A stretch of DNA of 64,000 bases, taken from assembly GCA_016720775.1 (NCBI GenBank), contig JADKJX010000011.1:8896-72895 (forward strand), given 5' to 3'. Made by a program: the position numbers and the translations under genes. The notes beneath the pieces were generated by a model. That model was not told the DNA's origin. It saw only the letters and a list, made by a program, of their open reading frames with translations, and ran no database searches. Below are positions 3,196-49,417 of this stretch, in pieces. Position 1 is the first letter of the stretch; each line of letters starts with the position of its first letter. Origin of the DNA: Chitinophagaceae bacterium (GTDB taxonomy: Bacteria; Bacteroidota; Bacteroidia; Chitinophagales; Chitinophagaceae).

Positions 3196-3741
3196 ATGAA
3201 AAGATCAATTATTTTTTTTATCTCTTTAATTGGATTTGTAAGCCTGTTAAAAGCGCAATCAATCTTAACCCCGGTTGATGCCGACAGCAAGGTTCATTTT
3301 GTGATCAAAAATTTTGGCATTAAGACCGGGGGTGATTTTACCGGGCTGAAAGGGAACATGAAATTTGCCCCTGAAAATTTAGCCGCCTGCAGTTTTGATG
3401 TAACCGTTGATGCCGGTACAATTAATACCGATAACGAAAGCCGCGACGGTCACCTGAAGAAGGCTGAATACTTTGACGTAACCACCTACAAGACCATTCG
3501 TTTTAAAAGCACCAAGGTTGTTCTCTCATCTGTTGCCGGGAGGTATTATATTTTTGGAGAGGTTACCATAAAGGGCGTTACCAAGCCTGTTGAATTTGGT
3601 TTTTCCGCAAAGCCAAAAGATGGCGGATACATTTTTGAAGGGGAGTTCGGTATTAACCGGAGGGATTTTGGGGTGGGTGGAAGCAGCATCTCCATGTCGG
3701 ATAATTTAACCGTGTCTTTATCTGTATTTGCAAAAAAATAA
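3196..3741 (+). CDS. YceI family protein
   Basis: Signal peptide; SINTDN..RDGHLK..EYFD....I.FKS; TIKGVTK; INRRDFGVG. Confidence 0.9.
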   Translation: MKRSIIFFISLIGFVSLLKAQSILTPVDADSKVHFVIKNFGIKTGGDFTGLKGNMKFAPENLAACSFDVTVDAGTINTDNESRDGHLKKAEYFDVTTYKTIRFKSTKVVLSSVAGRYYIFGEVTIKGVTKPVEFGFSAKPKDGGYIFEGEFGINRRDFGVGGSSISMSDNLTVSLSVFAKK

Positions 3742-43727: not shown

Positions 43728-46236
43728 ATGAGAGTTAAATCCCTTTTTGCAGGCTTGCTTTTGCTGGGTATGTCTGCCGCGGCACAATTAAGAACACCAG
43801 ATGAATTTTTAGGTTATCCCCTCGGAAGCAAATTCACTCCCCATTACAAGATCGTAAACTATTTCAATCAAACGGCTGCAGCTATGCCGCAGATGATGAA
43901 ACTGGAAAAGTACGGCGAGACCAATGAAGGCAGGGAATTGTTGCTTGCATTTGTTTCCTCTGCAGAAAATATGGCGAGGCTGGAAGATATCCGGAAAAAT
44001 AACCTGCGGCTCACCGGCATATTAAAAGATAAGCCTGCTGATCCGTCTGCACCCGTGATCGTGTGGCTGAGTTATAATGTACATGGCAACGAAGCAAGTT
44101 CTTCGGAAGTTTCGATGAAGACCTTGTATGAATTACTAAATCCTGCCAACGCACAAACCAAAGAGTGGCTGAAGAACACGGTAGTGATCATTGACCCCTG
44201 TTTGAATCCCGATGGCAGGGACCGTTATGTGAATTGGTTCAATCAAATGGTTGGAAAGAATGCGAATGCTGATGTTGCAAGCCGGGAACACCGGGAACCA
44301 TGGCCGGGCGGCCGGGTGAACCATTACAATTTTGACCTGAACCGTGACTGGGCCTGGCAAACACAGGTGGCAACACAGGGCCGGGTAAAAAAATACAATG
44401 AGTGGATGCCGCAGATTCATTGCGATTACCACGAACAGTACATTAATAACCAGTCGTAGTTTGCGCCTGCTGCCGAACCTTTTCATGAAGTGATCACCCC
44501 CTGGCAACGGGAGTTCCAGGTAACCATTGGTAAAAACCATGCAAGGTATTTTGACGCCAATGGCTGGTTGTATTTTACCAAAGAGGTATTCGACCTGTTC
44601 TATCCATCGTATGGAGATACATACCCGACTTATAATGGCGCCATCGGCATGACCTATGAGCAGGCGGGCCATAGCATGGGTGGTTTGGCGGTGGTTACAA
44701 ATGATGGCGATACACTTTCTTTGAAAGACAGGATCGCTCATCATTTTACCACCAGCATGAGTACGGTAGAGATCGCTTCAAAGAATGCTGCAAAACTGAT
44801 CGGCGAATTCAAAAAATATTTTGATGATGCGAATGCCAATGGGATCGGCGAATACAAAACTTATGTGATAACAGAAAATAATGAAGGTAAGCGAAAAGCA
44901 TTGCAGAGTTTTTTTTGAACGGAATGGAATTGTGTACGGTTCAGCAAACATCTCTTCGGCGAAAGGATATAATTACTTTACCGGTAAAGAGGAAGGCTTT
45001 GCTGCGGTTGGAAGTATGGCGGTAAGCGCTTACCAGCCCAAATCTTCACTGGTGAAAGTGTTGTTTGAGCCCAAATCAAAATTAAGTGACTCGGTCACCT
45101 ACGACATAACCGCCTGGAGCCTGCCGTATGTATATGGTGTACAAGCCTATGCCGTTAAGGAAAGACTGGTAATGGGTTCATACAGCAGCCAGAAAATAAA
45201 TGGAAATATTACTGTAGCTGATTATGGTTACCTCGTTAATTACAATTCATTTGCCGATGCAAAATTCCTGGCTGCATTGCTCAATGCAAAAATAAAAGTG
45301 CGTTTCGCTGAAAAAGAATTCGGCTTCAATGGCCGGACGTTTGCAAAAGGGACCCTGATCATTTTGAAAAAAGGAAATGAAGATAAGTTGCAGCAGTTTG
45401 CCGGTATGGCGGCATCTTATAATGCTGCTGTAACAGAAGTAGGCGGAGGTTTTATGGATACCGGTTTTGATTTTGGCAGCGATAAGGTGCACCTCATTAA
45501 AAAACCAAATGTAGTACTGCTCACCGGCAAGGGAGTAAATGGCAATGCCGCCGGGGAAGTATGGCATTTGTTCGAGCAGCAGCTGGATTATCCGATTACC
45601 TTAATGAATGCAGAAGACATTGATGCCGGTGACCTGAAGAACACCGATGTGCTGATACTGCCGGATGGTAATTATAAATTCTTACAGAATAAAGAGGCCG
45701 CTGCAGAAATTAAAGCATGGGTGCAGCAGGGAGGAAAGATCATTGCGTTTGACAATGCGGCCGCACAGATAGCCAGGGCCGATTGGGGCATCAAATCAAA
45801 AAAGGAAGACGAGGATAAGAAGAAGGATGATAAAAAAGACGACAAAGATCCGTATGCAGACCTGAAACGTTATGAGAACAGGGAGCGGGATGGCATTGTA
45901 AATAACATACCCGGCGCCATTTACAAAGTGGAACTGGATAATAGTCACCCGCTTGCTTTTGGCTACGGCAATAATTATTATACGCTGAAACTGGGTGATG
46001 AAATGTATGAGTTCATGAAAAGCGGATGGAATGTAGGCGTTATCAAAAAAGAGAACCAGGCGGCAGGCTTTGTAGGTAATAAGTTACAGGAAAAAATAAA
46101 AGACGGTACGGTGATCGGGGTGCAGCCATTGGGTAATGGCTCTATCGTGTTCTTTGCTGATGATCCCATTTTTAGAAATTTCTGGGAGAACGGGAAGATG
46201 CTGGTAGCAAATGCGGTTTTCCTCGTTGGGAATTAA
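43728..46236 (+). pseudogene. M14 family zinc carboxypeptidase with C-terminal GATase-like domain, interrupted by an in-frame TAG (44457) and +1 T (T8 run, ~44915)
   Basis: VHGNE..S.E; DP..NPDGR; R.NHY.FDLNRD; DYHE. The frame continues past TAG as FAPAAEPFHEVITPWQ. Confidence 0.85.
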
Positions 46237-46247
46237 AATGTTTTATG

Positions 46248-46941
46248 TTGCTTCGCAAAATAAACGTTGCCACAGAGGCACAGAAACACAGAAAATTCGG
46301 AGCAATGAGTGAATTTGAACAAATTGATCATCCTCTCAAGGAGGAAACGGAGATGATAATCGGGCTCGCCATTGAAGTTCATAAAATTTTGGGACCGGGA
46401 TTTTCAGAGATTGTTTATAAAGATGCCCTGGAATATGAATTCAATAAGAATGACCACCTGTTTGTGAGAGAAAAAGAATATAAAGTGCTTTATAAAGCGA
46501 TTATTCTAAAACATAAATTCTATGCTGATTTTGTGGTCTTCGATAAGGTAATTGTTGAGATAAAAGCTAAGCAGGCTGGTATTGCTGCAGAAGATATGGC
46601 ACAAACAATAAATTACCTGAAAGTATCTGGGTGCAAGGTTGGACTTATTTTAAATTTTGCAGCTGCAAAACTTCAGATTAAAAGAGTTATATTATAGATG
46701 ATGCCACAGAGGCACAGAAACACAGAAATAAAACAAATATGCAACTAAAAAATTACCAACTTCTTAAAACAAGTGCCTCTAATTTCTCCACTTCTGTGCT
46801 TCCGTGCTTCCGTGGCAAGCTCAATTTGCGTAAGCAAATCAATTATTCGTTTTTGAACTTTTATAGCAACTTAAGTTTACGCAATCAAATTACTTCTGTG
46901 CTTCTGTGCTTCCGTGGCAAACTTAATTTGCGCAAGCAAAT
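46248..46941. mobile_element. Putative repeat-bounded cassette carrying the GxxExxY gene (8-nt arrays, ~46-bp terminal inverted repeats)
   Basis: 27-bp exact direct repeat tgccacagaggcacagaaacacagaaa at 46268-46294 and 46702-46728. Two inverted copies, cttctgtgctt(c/t)(c/t)gtgcttccgtggcaa...aatttgcg.aagcaaat, at 46791-46839 and 46893-46941. Confidence 0.55.
46305..46697 (+). CDS. GxxExxY protein (PD-(D/E)XK nuclease-like)
   Basis: IIG.A.EVH..LGPGFSEIVY..AL..E; ADFVV.DKVIVEIKA; Q..NYLK.SG..VGL..NF. Likely start MSEFE at 46305; the longer ORF start reads through the repeat. Confidence 0.92.
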   Translation: MSEFEQIDHPLKEETEMIIGLAIEVHKILGPGFSEIVYKDALEYEFNKNDHLFVREKEYKVLYKAIILKHKFYADFVVFDKVIVEIKAKQAGIAAEDMAQTINYLKVSGCKVGLILNFAAAKLQIKRVIL

Positions 46942-49417
46942 TCTGCTCTTTTTATTTGCTACCATGTTTTGCGGAGTAAGCGCTCAGGTGCCTAAATCAT
47001 ATACTTCTGCCGAATTGCTGCTTCAGCTAAAAAAACTCAACGTACTTGGTTCCGTATTATACATTGCTGCTCACCCTGATGATGAGAATACAAGATTACT
47101 TGCCTATCTCGCCAATGAAAAATTATACCGTACCGGTTACCTGAGTTTAACAAGAGGCGATGGCGGACAGAATCTGATCGGTGATGAGCAAGGTGTTGAC
47201 CTTGGCCTAATACGTACACAGGAATTACTTTCTGCAAGACGTATCGATGGCGCCGAACAATTCTTTAGCCGTGCATTTGATTTTGGTTTCAGCAAAAGCC
47301 CCGAAGAAGCGATGCGTTTTTGGGGACACGATAAAATATTAAGTGATGTAGTTTGGGTAATACGTAAGTTCAAACCCGATGTGATCATCACCCGCTTTCC
47401 CACAACCGGCGAAGGAGGGCATGGGCATCATACCGCTTCCGCCATGCTGGCCGGCGAAGCATTTGATGCAGCGGCAGATCCCACAAAATTTCCTGAGCAA
47501 TTGACGCAGGGTGTTACCGTTTGGCAGGCAAAGCGTTTGCTTTGGAACACATTCAATTTTGGCGGAACAAATACACAACGGGATGACCAGTTTAAAATGG
47601 AATGCGGCGACTACAATCCCATTCTTGGAAAAAGTTATGGTGAGATCGCTGCTGCCAGCAGAAGCCAGCACAAGAGCCAGGGCTTTGGCGTGCCGGCGCA
47701 AAGGGGCAGTGTGATCGAATATTTTAAAACGATCAAAGGTTCGGCGCCGGTGAATGACCTGATGGATGATGTGGACCTGGGCTGGAACCGGATCAATGCA
47801 TCAAGCCTGACCAATGAAGTAAAGAAGATCATTGAAAAATTTGAAGTAGAGCATCCGGAAAGATCGCTCCTGGCATTGACGAAGCTTTATAAAAATGTGG
47901 GAGAAGTAAAAGATGAGTACTGGAAAAATCTCAAACTGAATGCGGTGAACGACCTGATTGAAAACTGCAGCGGCCTGTTCATGGATGCAACCAGCAATAC
48001 CCAGTTTGCCGTGCAGGGTGATAGTTTGAAAATTAACCTCGTCGTGAATAACCGGTCGGGAGCTAACATCCTGAGTGCCGATGCATTCCTGAATGACGAC
48101 TATGTGATCTTCGACCAGTTAAAGAAGAATGTGAATTCGGTACAGAACTACAGCATCTACATCAGACCAAATGCAAAGATCACCCAGCCTTATTGGCTGG
48201 AGAATGCAATGGATAAAGGAAGCTTTAATGTAACCGATCAGCAACAGATCGGGAAAGCAGAAAGTGACCCTATGAGTGTTGTGTTCAGCATGCTGGTGGA
48301 AGGCACAGAGTTTAAATTCCGTAAGCCGGTACGCTATAAACATACCGACCCGGTGAAAGGAGAATTGTATCAACCTGTTTCCATCATCCCAAAACTGGAA
48401 CTGAATTATGCCGGTGATGTTTTCCTGGCAGTAAATAGTAAACCGGTTGATATACGCACACATATAAAGGCGAACCTGAATCTTCCCGAAGTTGCTGCCT
48501 ATACGGTTACCAAGCAAACTTCTTCAAAGATCACGAACTCAAATAATCCCTATGTATTTAAGAACGGGGGAATGAATAAAGAGAATTATGAATCCTCCAC
48601 TTTTGGTTTTAATGCGGTTGATTCGGATTATACCGAACAGATCAGGCTGCAGGCGGGGGACGGCAATAATCTTTTTCATCAATATAAAAGAACCATCGAG
48701 TACGATCACATTCCTTCCATCGTTTATTTTCATGATGCTACGGCTAAACTTTCTAGGGTTGATCTGAAGACAGAAGGGAATTTTGTAGGATATATTCCCG
48801 GGGCAGGCGATAAAGTGCCGGATGCTTTGATCCAGATGGGATATAAGGTAGTAACGCTGAAAGAAAGCGACATCACTGCAGCTAACCTGCGGCAGTTTGA
48901 TGCCATCGTTACCGGCGTACGTGCATACAACACCAATGAATGGATGAATAATGTGTACGATGAGCTGATGCAGTATGTGAAAGATGGGGGTGTGCTGCTG
49001 GTTCAATACAATACGAGTAACCAGATCGGCCCGGTGAAGGCAAAAATATCGCCCTATCCATTTACCATCAGCCGCAACCGGATAACGGACGAAGAAGCAA
49101 AAGTGAATTTCCTTTTGCCCGATCACCCGGCCCTGAATTACCCGAATAAGATAACGCAAAAAGATTTTGAAGGCTGGATACAGGAGCGGAGCATTTATCA
49201 TGCAGAGAATACCGACACGGCCTATAAAAAAATATTCAGCATGAAAGATCCCGGCGAGAATGAACAGGACGGCAGCCTCATCATTGCCAATTACGGCAAG
49301 GGAAGATTTGTGTATACCGGGTTGGTTTTCTTCCGGGAGTTACCGGCCGGTGTGCCGGGAGCGTATCGCTTGTTTGCGAATTTAATTGCTAATAACAGGA
49401 GTAAGTATATAAAATAG
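46928..49417 (+). CDS. PIG-L/LmbE family de-N-acetylase with C-terminal extension
   Basis: VLYIAAHPDDEN; LTRGDGGQN; R..ELL.AR; GHGHH. The ORF track start at 46739 is repeat-derived; TTG 46928 gives the signal peptide MRKQILLFLFATMFCGVSAQ. Confidence 0.88.
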   Translation: MRKQILLFLFATMFCGVSAQVPKSYTSAELLLQLKKLNVLGSVLYIAAHPDDENTRLLAYLANEKLYRTGYLSLTRGDGGQNLIGDEQGVDLGLIRTQELLSARRIDGAEQFFSRAFDFGFSKSPEEAMRFWGHDKILSDVVWVIRKFKPDVIITRFPTTGEGGHGHHTASAMLAGEAFDAAADPTKFPEQLTQGVTVWQAKRLLWNTFNFGGTNTQRDDQFKMECGDYNPILGKSYGEIAAASRSQHKSQGFGVPAQRGSVIEYFKTIKGSAPVNDLMDDVDLGWNRINASSLTNEVKKIIEKFEVEHPERSLLALTKLYKNVGEVKDEYWKNLKLNAVNDLIENCSGLFMDATSNTQFAVQGDSLKINLVVNNRSGANILSADAFLNDDYVIFDQLKKNVNSVQNYSIYIRPNAKITQPYWLENAMDKGSFNVTDQQQIGKAESDPMSVVFSMLVEGTEFKFRKPVRYKHTDPVKGELYQPVSIIPKLELNYAGDVFLAVNSKPVDIRTHIKANLNLPEVAAYTVTKQTSSKITNSNNPYVFKNGGMNKENYESSTFGFNAVDSDYTEQIRLQAGDGNNLFHQYKRTIEYDHIPSIVYFHDATAKLSRVDLKTEGNFVGYIPGAGDKVPDALIQMGYKVVTLKESDITAANLRQFDAIVTGVRAYNTNEWMNNVYDELMQYVKDGGVLLVQYNTSNQIGPVKAKISPYPFTISRNRITDEEAKVNFLLPDHPALNYPNKITQKDFEGWIQERSIYHAENTDTAYKKIFSMKDPGENEQDGSLIIANYGKGRFVYTGLVFFRELPAGVPGAYRLFANLIANNRSKYIK

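What the first reader, a model, noticed from the sequence alone, without database searches (positions are those of the whole stretch)
46248..46941. GxxExxY nuclease-like gene in a nested direct plus inverted octamer-repeat cassette
Seen: an exact 27-bp direct repeat (units cacagagg/cacagaaa) on each side of the gene, then two 49-bp inverted copies spaced 102 nt apart. The outermost pair extends beyond the octamers: ttgcttcgcaaaataaacgttgccacagaggcacagaaacacagaa versus ttgcttgcgcaaattaagtttgccacggaagcacagaagcacagaa, giving ~46-bp terminal inverted repeats. Most mismatches are A/G changes compatible with G-U pairs, which hints at selection on RNA pairing. The arrangement (> gene > < <) allows alternative stems that include or exclude the gene, and direct-repeat recombination could delete it. 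The right arm appears to supply the TTG start of the downstream PIG-L gene. No transposase is present. Inference: a self-mobilising or self-processing element using the PD-(D/E)XK protein.
Basis: partly seen in the sequence, partly recalled or inferred. Interest (0 to 1): 0.75.

Follow-up and report, generated by a model that had tools for sequence, protein, structure and literature searches.

The report
Hairpin-armed GxxExxY nuclease cassette
A small nuclease gene sits between mirror-image arms made of short repeats; the same packaging surrounds this gene family in several bacterial phyla and behaves like an undescribed selfish DNA element that comes and goes between close relatives.

Summary
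The repeats are real and non-random. Window 46248-46941 holds a 130-aa GxxExxY (PF13366, PD-(D/E)XK) gene between inverted "arms". Each arm is a mini-hairpin, then GCCAC, then three CACAGARR octamers. An extra gene-less hairpin is nested behind the gene.

This is the standard packaging of the family, not a local oddity. 59 of 80 GxxExxY loci have a forward arm upstream and a reverse arm downstream. Arm type follows the protein clade, and the two arms of a locus match each other.

Gene-less hairpins, tandem arrays, internally deleted copies and pseudogenes also exist. Half of the low-GC gene-less hairpins keep the gene's last codons.

At the M14/PIG-L site the cassette is present or cleanly absent in a pattern nearly unrelated to the PIG-L tree (21 changes for 30 filled tips). 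The gene is a mosaic compared with its closest relative.

Best reading: a selfish cassette that depends on its nuclease, resembling REPIN-RAYT and homing elements. This mechanism is inferred, not shown.

The claim that the right arm supplies the PIG-L start is plausible. I found no description of this element in the literature, Rfam or PADLOC.

The parts
46248..46294 (+). Left (outer) arm. It consists of a mini-hairpin TTGCTTCGCAA (46248-46258), a spacer, then GCCAC and three octamers CACAGAGG/CACAGAAA/CACAGAAA (46269-46294).
   Evidence: (I1, D2). The same architecture lies upstream of orthologues and of most family members. It is read through as a false N-terminal extension, 'MLLRN..ATEAQKHRK', in database proteins.
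46305..46697 (+). GxxExxY gene (130 aa), a minimal PD-(D/E)XK nuclease. The catalytic-type residues E35, D75, E85 and K87 are invariant in 54 homologues.
   Evidence: AlphaFold2 model with pLDDT 93.5. Foldseek best matches are Cas4 SSO0001, RecE, lambda exonuclease and Hjc.
46694..46728 (+). Second forward arm (L2), starting on the stop codon. It is an exact 27-bp copy (46702-46728) of the left arm core and lacks the outer mini-hairpin.
   Evidence: D2. It is also present in L141, the relative whose PIG-L is 95% identical, and absent from canonical orthologues L001, L003 and L006.
46729..46789 (+). Loop of the nested gene-less hairpin formed by L2 and R1.
   Evidence: the hairpin 46702-46816 folds at -38.2 kcal/mol, z = -5.2.
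46790..46839 (+). Inner reverse arm R1: reverse octamers, GTGGC, then the mini-hairpin TTTGCGTAAGCAAA.
   Evidence: D1, I3, I4. It pairs with L2 in the predicted folds.
46841..46890 (+). Degenerate 51-nt unit of the right-arm array (60% identical to R1).
   Evidence: D1. Together with R1 it makes up the 102 nt that are missing in L141.
46892..46941 (+). Outer reverse arm R3, the partner of the left arm. Its mini-hairpin TTTGCGCAAGCAAA contains the in-frame TTG (46928-46930) that probably starts PIG-L.
   Evidence: (I1, D1). Codons TTG CGC/CGT AAG CAA (LRKQ) vary synonymously among orthologues. Filled-type PIG-L N-termini are translated arm sequence.
46928..49417 (+). PIG-L family deacetylase gene. 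Its start and signal peptide (about 46928-46996) belong to the 'filled' haplotype. The longest ORF, from ATG 46739, runs through the arm array.
44881..46236 (+). 3' part of the upstream M14 peptidase gene. Homology between filled and empty alleles ends at its stop codon, which is the left boundary of the insertion.

Best explanation
Window 46248-46941 is one copy of a widespread cassette that I could not find described anywhere. The cassette is a about 130-aa PD-(D/E)XK (GxxExxY) nuclease gene bracketed by inverted arms. Each arm is GCCRC followed by two or three tandem 8-9-nt units (here CACAGARR). In this lineage an outer mini-hairpin is added.

Shown:
- The gene-plus-arms unit is the standard form of the family.
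- Arm sequence type follows the protein clade.
- The unit gives rise to gene-less hairpins by internal deletion.
- It is present or cleanly absent at the same chromosomal site among close relatives.
- It recombines independently of its flanks.
- It decays to pseudogenes in some lineages.
- It sits co-oriented inside host gene strings.

Inferred: it is a selfish, low-copy mobile or gene-converting element. Its nuclease would recognise and cut the arm repeats, or the hairpins they form. Break repair or recombination would then copy the cassette, or its gene-less derivatives, into new or empty sites. This is analogous to homing endonuclease genes and to the REPIN-RAYT partnership, but with an unrelated enzyme. 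In the read-through transcript the two arms would pair and loop the ORF out. That could let the element reside between co-transcribed host genes, as 23S rRNA intervening sequences do.

At this particular site the insertion replaced the native start and signal peptide of PIG-L. The right arm now supplies them.
For: Arm-gene association:
- 59/80 loci have both arms within 220 nt, against a background of 0.13 regex hits per kb.
- Identity between the left arm and the reverse complement of the right arm is 0.86 within a locus and 0.63 between loci.
- Arm types cluster by protein clade. Paralogues in one MAG carry different types.
- Arms also flank copies in Treponema and Bernardetia and in high-GC contigs; Gemmatirosa and Fusobacteria gave only single weak inverted-repeat pairs.
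- In an unbiased scan for the arm 23-mer, every GxxExxY homologue found lay 24-112 nt from the arm (8 of 60 loci).

Non-autonomous derivatives:
- 17/80 loci have extra gene-less hairpins within 400 nt of the gene.
- L016 has tandem internally deleted copies (two or more by the arm-pair scan) and L102 has an internal deletion.
- 9/17 low-GC gene-less hairpins keep TTGTATT, the last codons of the gene, against 4.6% in shuffles.

Presence/absence:
- Empty junctions occur in L142-L144, and an empty-site contig occurs in the same sludge sample.
- About 30 filled and 81 empty PIG-L alleles need 21 state changes on the tree (shuffles: mean 26.4, minimum 22).

Independent history and decay:
- Against L141, the 5' two-thirds of the gene is 67-77% identical while the flanks are 88-90%.
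- The gene is split or stopped in L149, L151 and L119.

Nuclease: confident PD-(D/E)XK fold with the catalytic motif invariant.

Co-orientation: neighbours are on the same strand in 64/73 cases upstream and 66/76 downstream. RNA-library contigs run from the upstream gene through arms, gene and arms into the downstream gene in Cloacibacterium.
Against: - No cleavage, excision circle, new insertion or clear target-site duplication was observed. The contigs of the source population show one form only.
- Copy number is low. There is no other arm in the 64-kb window, no gene-less hairpin in 372 kb lying more than 400 nt from the genes, and only one arm site in a 602-kb Bernardetia replicon.
- The cassette is syntenic across Chitinophagaceae whose neighbouring proteins are only 50-76% identical. 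Much of its history at this site is therefore vertical.
- Filled and empty haplotypes each look single-origin, with a shared signal peptide per haplotype. Ordinary homologous recombination between lineages could explain the patchiness without any nuclease.
- High-GC copies with only 36-44% identical proteins carry the same CACAGAGG arms as this clade. This argues against simple arm-protein co-divergence.
- A 130-aa nuclease has no obvious strand-transfer activity.
Confidence: 0.5

Rival explanations
1. This is a host gene with RNA-level cis elements. GxxExxY is a conserved housekeeping or stress nuclease. The arms are transcribed and pair in the mRNA to form an RNase III or stability/translation-control stem. 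Gene-less hairpins are decayed copies that serve as RNA stabilisers or insulators. The patchy distribution comes from ordinary recombination and loss.
For: The arms abut the ORF, ending 10-60 nt before the start and beginning 4-40 nt after the stop. The cassette is co-oriented with both neighbours. RNA-library contigs span the arms and both gene borders. Stable nested stems are predicted, with z about -5. The locus is syntenic over large divergence, and most copies look to be under purifying selection.
Against: Arm mismatches show no excess of G:U-compatible changes on the sense strand (61 against 71). At this locus most transitions give A:C. There is no terminator signature and no Rfam family. 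A housekeeping gene would not be cleanly absent in relatives whose PIG-L is 85-90% identical, nor repeatedly pseudogenised. Cis-regulation does not explain identical 23-nt arms in contigs of 36-70% GC.
Confidence: 0.2
2. The arms are an independent REP-like hairpin element, mobilised or maintained by some other host enzyme. GxxExxY is a passenger gene, or a gene that inserts preferentially into the loops of such hairpins.
For: 52 of 60 loci found with the arm 23-mer have no GxxExxY homologue in the stretch held. Solo arms exist. The same arm sequence occurs with proteins only about 40% identical.
Against: In Bacteroidota loci, gene-less hairpins were seen only right next to GxxExxY genes: 17/80 within 400 nt and 0 in 372 kb further away. 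Gene-less loops keep the 3' end of the gene (L016), so they derive from full cassettes and are not empty targets. Each paralogue carries its own arm type. No other conserved gene accompanies the arms.
Confidence: 0.15
3. This is an anti-phage defence or toxin-type nuclease, and its flanking repeats are incidental.
For: It is a small stand-alone PD-(D/E)XK nuclease from a large and diverse family of 8,446 clusters at 50% identity. One plasmid copy lies next to a Fic-family gene.
Against: There is no PADLOC match and only a marginal PHROG hit. No partner gene is conserved and the neighbours are unrelated housekeeping genes. This idea does not explain the arms.
Confidence: 0.05

Closest known systems
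REPIN-RAYT systems (REP doublets forming hairpins plus REP-associated tyrosine transposases; PMC3116915, PMC3337134)
   Same: A short enzyme gene is flanked by inverted copies of a repeat that also occurs as gene-less hairpin doublets. Each gene copy is tied to its own repeat sequence type. Inheritance at a fixed locus is largely vertical.
   Different: The enzyme is a PD-(D/E)XK nuclease, not an HUH/Y1 transposase related to IS200/IS605. The arms are arrays of tandem octamers after GCCRC, not REP palindromes. Copy number is low rather than hundreds per genome. Gene-less hairpins keep a remnant of the gene. The gene-carrying unit itself is present or absent among close relatives.
Free-standing homing endonuclease genes, including PD-(D/E)XK ones such as I-Ssp6803I (from my own knowledge)
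   Same: It is a small nuclease ORF. It is present or precisely absent at the same site in close relatives, with a flanking segment differing by haplotype. It has a mosaic history and shows cycles of decay.
   Different: It is not in an intron or intein. It is bracketed by long inverted repeat arms and has gene-less hairpin derivatives, which homing endonuclease genes lack. Cleavage of the empty site is untested. Structural similarity to a homing endonuclease is only weak (I-Bth0305I at rank 35).
23S rRNA intervening sequences carrying a small ORF (for example the Coxiella IVS with S23p; PMC4990558)
   Same: A small ORF of unknown function is enclosed by inverted repeats that would form a long stem in a host transcript. 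The element is regarded as selfish.
   Different: It is not in rRNA (no Rfam rRNA or other family in 20 loci). The protein family is different (PD-(D/E)XK, not a four-helix bundle). RNase III processing is not shown, and there is no RNA-strand signature in the arms.
MITEs and their autonomous parents
   Same: There are terminal inverted repeats. Short non-autonomous copies arise by internal deletion of the coding copy. Tandem and nested arrangements occur.
   Different: No transposase of any known family is encoded. No consistent target-site duplication was found. One high-GC copy has a 16-nt flanking direct repeat, and none is visible at the M14/PIG-L site.

Membership tests
GxxExxY protein family (TIGR04256 / PF13366 PDDEXK_3) | Score above the curated cut-off of the family models | tested here: met
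   TIGR04256 scores 124.7 bits (cut-off 35) and PF13366 scores 113.5 bits (cut-off 22), both over the full model length.
PD-(D/E)XK nuclease superfamily | Alpha-beta-beta-beta-alpha-beta core carrying the D...(D/E)xK catalytic motif | tested here: met
   The AlphaFold2 model has pLDDT 93.5. Foldseek matches Cas4, RecE, lambda exonuclease and Hjc. E35, D75, E85 and K87 are invariant in 54 sequences. Catalysis itself was not assayed.
REPIN-RAYT system | The enzyme is an HUH/Y1 transposase related to IS200/IS605 TnpA | tested here: not met
   The only matches are to PD-(D/E)XK families. The defining feature is taken from PMC3337134.
REPIN-RAYT system | The gene is flanked by inverted repeats that also occur as gene-less hairpins, with a specific repeat type per gene | tested here: met
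REPIN-RAYT system | Tens to hundreds of dispersed repeat copies per genome | tested here: inconclusive
   No further copies occur in the 64-kb window, in 372 kb of flanks or in a 602-kb replicon. Dispersed gene-less copies do exist in metagenome contigs. No whole genome could be scanned.
Transposon / MITE | Encoded transposase (DDE, HUH, serine or tyrosine type) | tested here: not met
   The only ORF between the arms is the 130-aa nuclease. The neighbours are M14, PIG-L and SSF.
Transposon / MITE | Terminal inverted repeats and a target-site duplication | tested here: inconclusive
   Terminal inverted repeats are present (46 nt). No duplication is visible when the filled site is compared with the empty site. 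A 16-nt direct repeat flanks the high-GC copy in L102.
Homing endonuclease gene | Presence or precise absence at one site among relatives, with flanking co-variation | tested here: met
Homing endonuclease gene | The nuclease cleaves the empty allele and is copied in by repair | not testable with these tools
   This needs biochemistry and a genetic conversion assay.
23S rRNA intervening sequence | Located within a 23S rRNA helix and excised by RNase III | tested here: not met
   The cassette lies between protein-coding genes. There is no rRNA or other Rfam family in the window region or in 20 related loci. Processing was not testable.
Integron gene cassette | attC site and an adjacent integrase/attI platform | tested here: not met
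   The arms flank both sides of the gene. No integrase is present and the loci are scattered single copies.
Intrinsic terminator or known structured RNA | GC-rich stem followed by a T tract, or a match to an Rfam model | tested here: not met
   No terminator-like sites were found. The only Rfam hits were sub-threshold miRNA-precursor look-alikes of the hairpin.

The most novel reading that the evidence does not exclude
GxxExxY genes with their GCCRC-octamer arms are a new class of bacterial mobile element, found in several phyla. A minimal PD-(D/E)XK nuclease recognises hairpin or duplex arms built from tandem octamers and drives copying of itself and of gene-less hairpin derivatives. This would be a non-HUH counterpart of the IS200/REPIN-RAYT world. 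It would assign a role to thousands of 'function unknown' genes and to a class of conserved intergenic hairpins.
Probability: 0.35. Interest if true: 0.88.

Novelty: new variant of a known kind. Interest (0 to 1): 0.77.

Why it matters
PF13366/TIGR04256 is a large family of unknown function: 8,446 clusters at 50% identity at E<=1e-3. It is found in Bacteroidota, Spirochaetota, Gemmatimonadota, Fusobacteriota and in high-GC contigs of unidentified phyla.

A fixed gene-plus-arm anatomy gives the family a concrete hypothesis that can be tested directly: the nuclease acts on the arm. The anatomy includes cognate arm types, deletion derivatives and presence/absence polymorphism.

It explains two recurring annotation artefacts:
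- N-terminal 'extensions' such as ..ATEAQKHRK.. or ..TDYTD.. on these proteins are translated arm sequence.
- Arm-derived N-termini appear on downstream genes.

It also shows an insertion that replaced a host gene's start codon and signal peptide with its own sequence.

If the mechanism holds, this is a second, enzymatically unrelated solution to the lifestyle in which a gene and its hairpin repeats persist together, so far known only from REPIN-RAYT. It could also be a source of sequence-specific hairpin nucleases.

Tried and rejected
- G-U asymmetry as a sign of RNA pairing: rejected. Family-wide there are 61 sense against 71 antisense wobble-compatible transitions plus 294 transversion mismatches. 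At this locus there is 1 G:U against 2-4 A:C or C:A per arm pair.
- The idea that the filled-type PIG-L signal peptide is a decayed extra arm copy: alignment scores are no better than shuffles, so it is dropped.
- Rfam: nothing real in the window region or in 20 related loci.
- PADLOC gave no hit. PDB sequence search gave no real hit. PHROGs gave one marginal hit.
- Viral contigs: no relatives found with the patterns used.
- Literature: searches for 'GxxExxY', 'PDDEXK_3' and six arm sequences as strings returned nothing relevant. A combined keyword search returned no papers.
- RNA evidence for the window itself: no RNA run holds it. I used a Cloacibacterium locus instead. Only assembled contigs without strand were available there, and contig breaks at repeats say nothing about processing.
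- Population variants in the source sludge runs: the main contig equals the window. The 'joints' seen at 85% likeness are other organisms' hairpins or an empty-site relative, not excision products.
- Arm census in a replicon: only a 602-kb Bernardetia plasmid could be tested, and it has a single site. Whole genomes could not be scanned.
- The outer mini-hairpin as a universal part of the arm: rejected. It is enriched only modestly (34/106 against 23% in controls) and is confined mainly to low-GC copies.
Full report
**1.

- A 27-bp exact direct repeat, TGCCACAGAGGCACAGAAACACAGAAA, lies at 46268-46294 and 46702-46728.
- Reverse copies lie at 46790-46839 and 46892-46941 (92% identical, 102 nt apart). 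A degenerate third unit lies at 46841-46890, which gives a 51-nt period.
- The outermost inverted pair, 46248-46293 and 46894-46939, is 46 nt long and 78% complementary.
- The octamer pattern occurs 7 times in the window, all at this locus, against 0.08 expected.

The enclosed ORF 46305-46697 is a full-length GxxExxY protein (TIGR04256 2e-36, PF13366 9e-33). The neighbours are an M14 peptidase gene upstream and a PIG-L family deacetylase downstream. No transposase is present.

The outer arms pair around the gene, and L2-R1 form a separate hairpin (-38.2 kcal/mol, z = -5.2; whole region z = -4.9).

**2. The arms are the family's standard packaging**

Homologues with called N-terminal extensions read 'MLLRNK..CHRGTEAQK', 'ATEARKHRK' or 'LPQRHGSTE'. 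These are translated left arms.

I fetched 80 genome loci encoding relatives.
- The closest ones (64-81% identity) all have forward CACNGARR octamers about 50-65 nt before the match and reverse octamers about 20-40 nt after it.
- With a looser pattern (CCRC-N-RA-N2-4-RC-N-RA), 65 loci have a forward arm within 220 nt upstream, 71 have a reverse arm within 220 nt downstream, and 59 have both. Background is 0.13 hits per kb counting both strands.
- Ordered on the protein tree, arm types form blocks: CACAGARR, CACGGATTA, CGCAGATT, CACGAATG, CACAGATG and CGCTGATT.
- The left arm and the reverse complement of the right arm are 86% identical within a locus, against 63% between loci.
- Paralogues from one MAG carry different types: L009 and L034, L019 and L027, L046 and L073.
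- Copies on plasmids of Treponema and Bernardetia are flanked by the same kind of motif, and Gemmatirosa has an octamer hairpin just downstream of the gene. The gene-flanking pairs in Gemmatirosa and Fusobacteria are single weak inverted-repeat matches.
- N-terminal extensions of distant family representatives contain arm peptides such as TDYTD and NTEYTE.

**3. The protein**

AlphaFold2 gives a confident model (pLDDT 93.5). Its best structural neighbours are Cas4 (SSO0001), RecE, lambda exonuclease, MGME1 and Hjc. It is therefore a minimal PD-(D/E)XK core. E35 (of GxxExxY), D75, E85 and K87 are invariant in 54 homologues, so an active nuclease is likely. There is no solved relative by sequence, no PADLOC model and no relevant literature.

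**4. Derivatives without the gene**

- 17 of 80 loci carry extra gene-less hairpins within 400 nt of the gene. None was found in 372 kb further away.
- L016 has tandem copies in which only the first and last codons of the gene remain between the arms.
- L102 is an internally deleted copy of the L137 element.
- An exact-match scan of metagenome contigs for the arm 23-mer returned 60 loci. In 8 of them a GxxExxY homologue lies 24-112 nt from the arm. The other 52 have none in the stretch held. About half are short hairpins and some are solo arms. GC content ranges from 0.36 to 0.70, so several phyla are involved.
- Nine of 17 low-GC gene-less hairpins keep TTGTATT next to an arm, against 4.6% of shuffled loops. 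This motif is the end of the gene (..GTT GTA TTT TAA). The hairpins are therefore deletion derivatives of full cassettes, not empty targets.

**5. Presence and absence at this very site**

The closest genome loci (L001-L007, L009) are syntenic as M14 - GxxExxY - PIG-L, even where M14 is only 50% identical. Arm number differs between them: L002 has 2 left and 3-4 right arms, and L004 has 2 right arms.

Relatives with 85-90% identical PIG-L (L142, L143, L144) have no cassette and no arm trace. There the M14 stop is followed by about 50 AT-rich nt and then an ATG that starts 'MFKKLFPAFLILNFSFLIVSAQA'. A 437-nt contig of an empty-site relative is present in the same activated-sludge sample as the window.

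Among 120 PIG-L orthologues, about 30 have arm-derived N-termini ('MKNKFLCFCASVANSNLRKQI..ILLLFFVAFFCEANAQ'). About 81 have the empty-type signal peptide. On a neighbour-joining tree of the mature protein, the 30 filled tips need 21 state changes. Shuffled labels need 26.4 on average and 22 at minimum. Several sister pairs differ in state.

Homology between the two haplotypes ends at the M14 stop codon and resumes at the signal-peptidase site. Four further filled loci all contain the gene, and in two of them it is split by a frameshift or stop. L119 also has in-frame stops.

Against L141, whose PIG-L is 95% identical, the flanks are 88-90% identical at the DNA level. The left arm and the 5' two-thirds of the gene are only 67-77% identical. 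The 3' third plus the inner hairpin is 88-96% identical. The right-arm array differs by a 102-nt indel whose junction is an R1/R3 hybrid. The cassette therefore has a history of its own.

**6. RNA or DNA?**

- At this locus, transitions in the arm pairs give mostly A:C on the sense strand.
- Over 57 loci, 61 transitions are wobble-compatible on the sense strand and 71 on the antisense strand (p=0.43), beside 294 transversion mismatches.
- No terminator-like site and no Rfam family was found.

On the other hand, cassettes are strongly co-oriented with both neighbours (64/73 and 66/76; many loci are orthologous, so these counts are not independent). In wastewater RNA libraries, contigs of a Cloacibacterium locus with two concentric arm pairs run from the end of the upstream gene through arms, gene and arms into the downstream gene. 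DNA carry-over cannot be excluded there.

The arms are thus probably transcribed, but their conservation does not carry an RNA-strand signature.

**7. Explanation**

I favour (0.5) a selfish, low-copy cassette whose nuclease acts on its own arms and spreads by repair or recombination. This resembles homing elements and REPIN-RAYT. RNA pairing of the arms would be a way to sit harmlessly inside operons.

The anatomy, its generality, the derivatives, the polymorphism, the mosaicism and the decay are shown. The action of the nuclease on the arms and any mobility mechanism are inferred.

Points against:
- Copy number is low.
- The cassette has a long vertical history at this site.
- Both haplotypes look single-origin, so plain recombination could shuffle them.
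- High-GC copies with about 40% identical proteins share the same arm type.

The rivals are an RNA-regulated host gene (0.2), an independent hairpin element with GxxExxY as passenger (0.15) and a defence or toxin nuclease (0.05).

**8. Comparison with known systems**

REPIN-RAYT (PMC3116915, PMC3337134) is the closest in logic but fails membership on its defining enzyme. Homing endonuclease genes match the population pattern but not the arms. 23S rRNA intervening sequences (PMC4990558) match the 'ORF in a stem' design but not the location. MITEs match the derivatives, but no transposase is encoded.

I rate it a new variant of a known kind. I found no description of these arms or of their link to GxxExxY. 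The paper library is incomplete, so prior description cannot be excluded.

**9. The PIG-L start**

In filled alleles the native ATG and signal peptide are gone. The arm's mini-hairpin provides an in-frame TTG (46928) followed by RKQ and a hydrophobic stretch. CGC/CGT variation at the Arg codon is synonymous across orthologues. An ATG just after the GxxExxY stop is also in frame through one or two 51-nt (17-codon) arm units in many loci. Which start is used is unresolved.

Noticed in passing
window 43728-46236: The M14 peptidase gene is broken into three ORFs (43728-44459, 44490-44918, 44881-46236), whereas orthologues are single ORFs of 834-863 aa. Against L141, indels sit at a T-run near 44912 and a few bases further on. 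This is either a real pseudogene or an assembly error.
   Followed up: partly
window 46841-46941 compared with L141 2620-2680: L141, the relative whose PIG-L is 95% identical, has one right arm where the window has R1, a degenerate unit and R3. Its single arm is an R1/R3 hybrid. This points to deletion or duplication by recombination between direct arm copies (a 102-nt indel).
   Followed up: yes
window 46252-46537 compared with L141: The left arm and the 5' two-thirds of the GxxExxY gene are 67-77% identical, while the flanking genes are 88-90% and the 3' third of the gene is 88-96%. This is a recombination mosaic with breakpoints at the left arm and inside the gene.
   Followed up: partly
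L001 about 3440-3470, L003 and other filled loci; window 46968-46982 (degenerate): The filled-type signal peptide encodes ..FCEAK/FCEAN.. with TTTTGCGAAGCAAAA. This is the exact reverse complement of the left arm's mini-hairpin TTGCTTCGCAA and lies just before homology with empty alleles resumes. It may mark the true right end of the inserted DNA.
   Followed up: partly
L102 about 800-1290 and L137 (high-GC contigs): A 16-nt direct repeat, AGAACGTATTGGGCCT, flanks the cassette. It is part of a roughly 28-nt imperfect duplication of the 3' end of the upstream gene. This could be a target duplication, or a repaired gene end carried by the element.
   Followed up: no
L016, 3388-4100: Tandem units of about 220 nt (two or more by the arm-pair scan) follow the intact gene. 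Each is arm, then the first and last codons of GxxExxY, then arm. This is tandem amplification of an internally deleted copy.
   Followed up: partly
L053 2911-3466 (Cloacibacterium normanense): Two concentric arm pairs of slightly different sequence surround one gene: L1 pairs with R2 and L2 pairs with R1. In RNA-library contigs the word depth is 2-5 times higher just outside the gene (2756-2926, 3497-3610) than inside it. This could mean multi-copy sequence or more highly expressed neighbours.
   Followed up: no
L017 about 3400-3500 and L024 about 3520-3580: In another syntenic group the right arm (TCTGCGCATCTGCGG) lies inside the signal-peptide coding region of the downstream gene (..ICASAAKAQQ.., ..KSANLRL..). 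This is a second case where arm sequence is used as the N-terminal coding sequence of a host gene.
   Followed up: no
L097, L106, L131 (one sample, GC 0.53-0.60): Three contigs share not only the hairpin but also about 40 nt of upstream flank (..aaatcaggccacatcagaatggcacaaaaagagat..). In that organism a larger repeated unit contains the arm hairpin.
   Followed up: no
one search list (for example P0257, P0275, P0289, P0307): Some family representatives are 250-295 aa long with two GxxExxY domains in tandem.
   Followed up: no
L149 959-1498: In one filled locus the upstream neighbour is a TonB-dependent receptor instead of M14, and the GxxExxY gene is split into two ORFs. This indicates a rearrangement at the left boundary of the cassette.
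   Followed up: no
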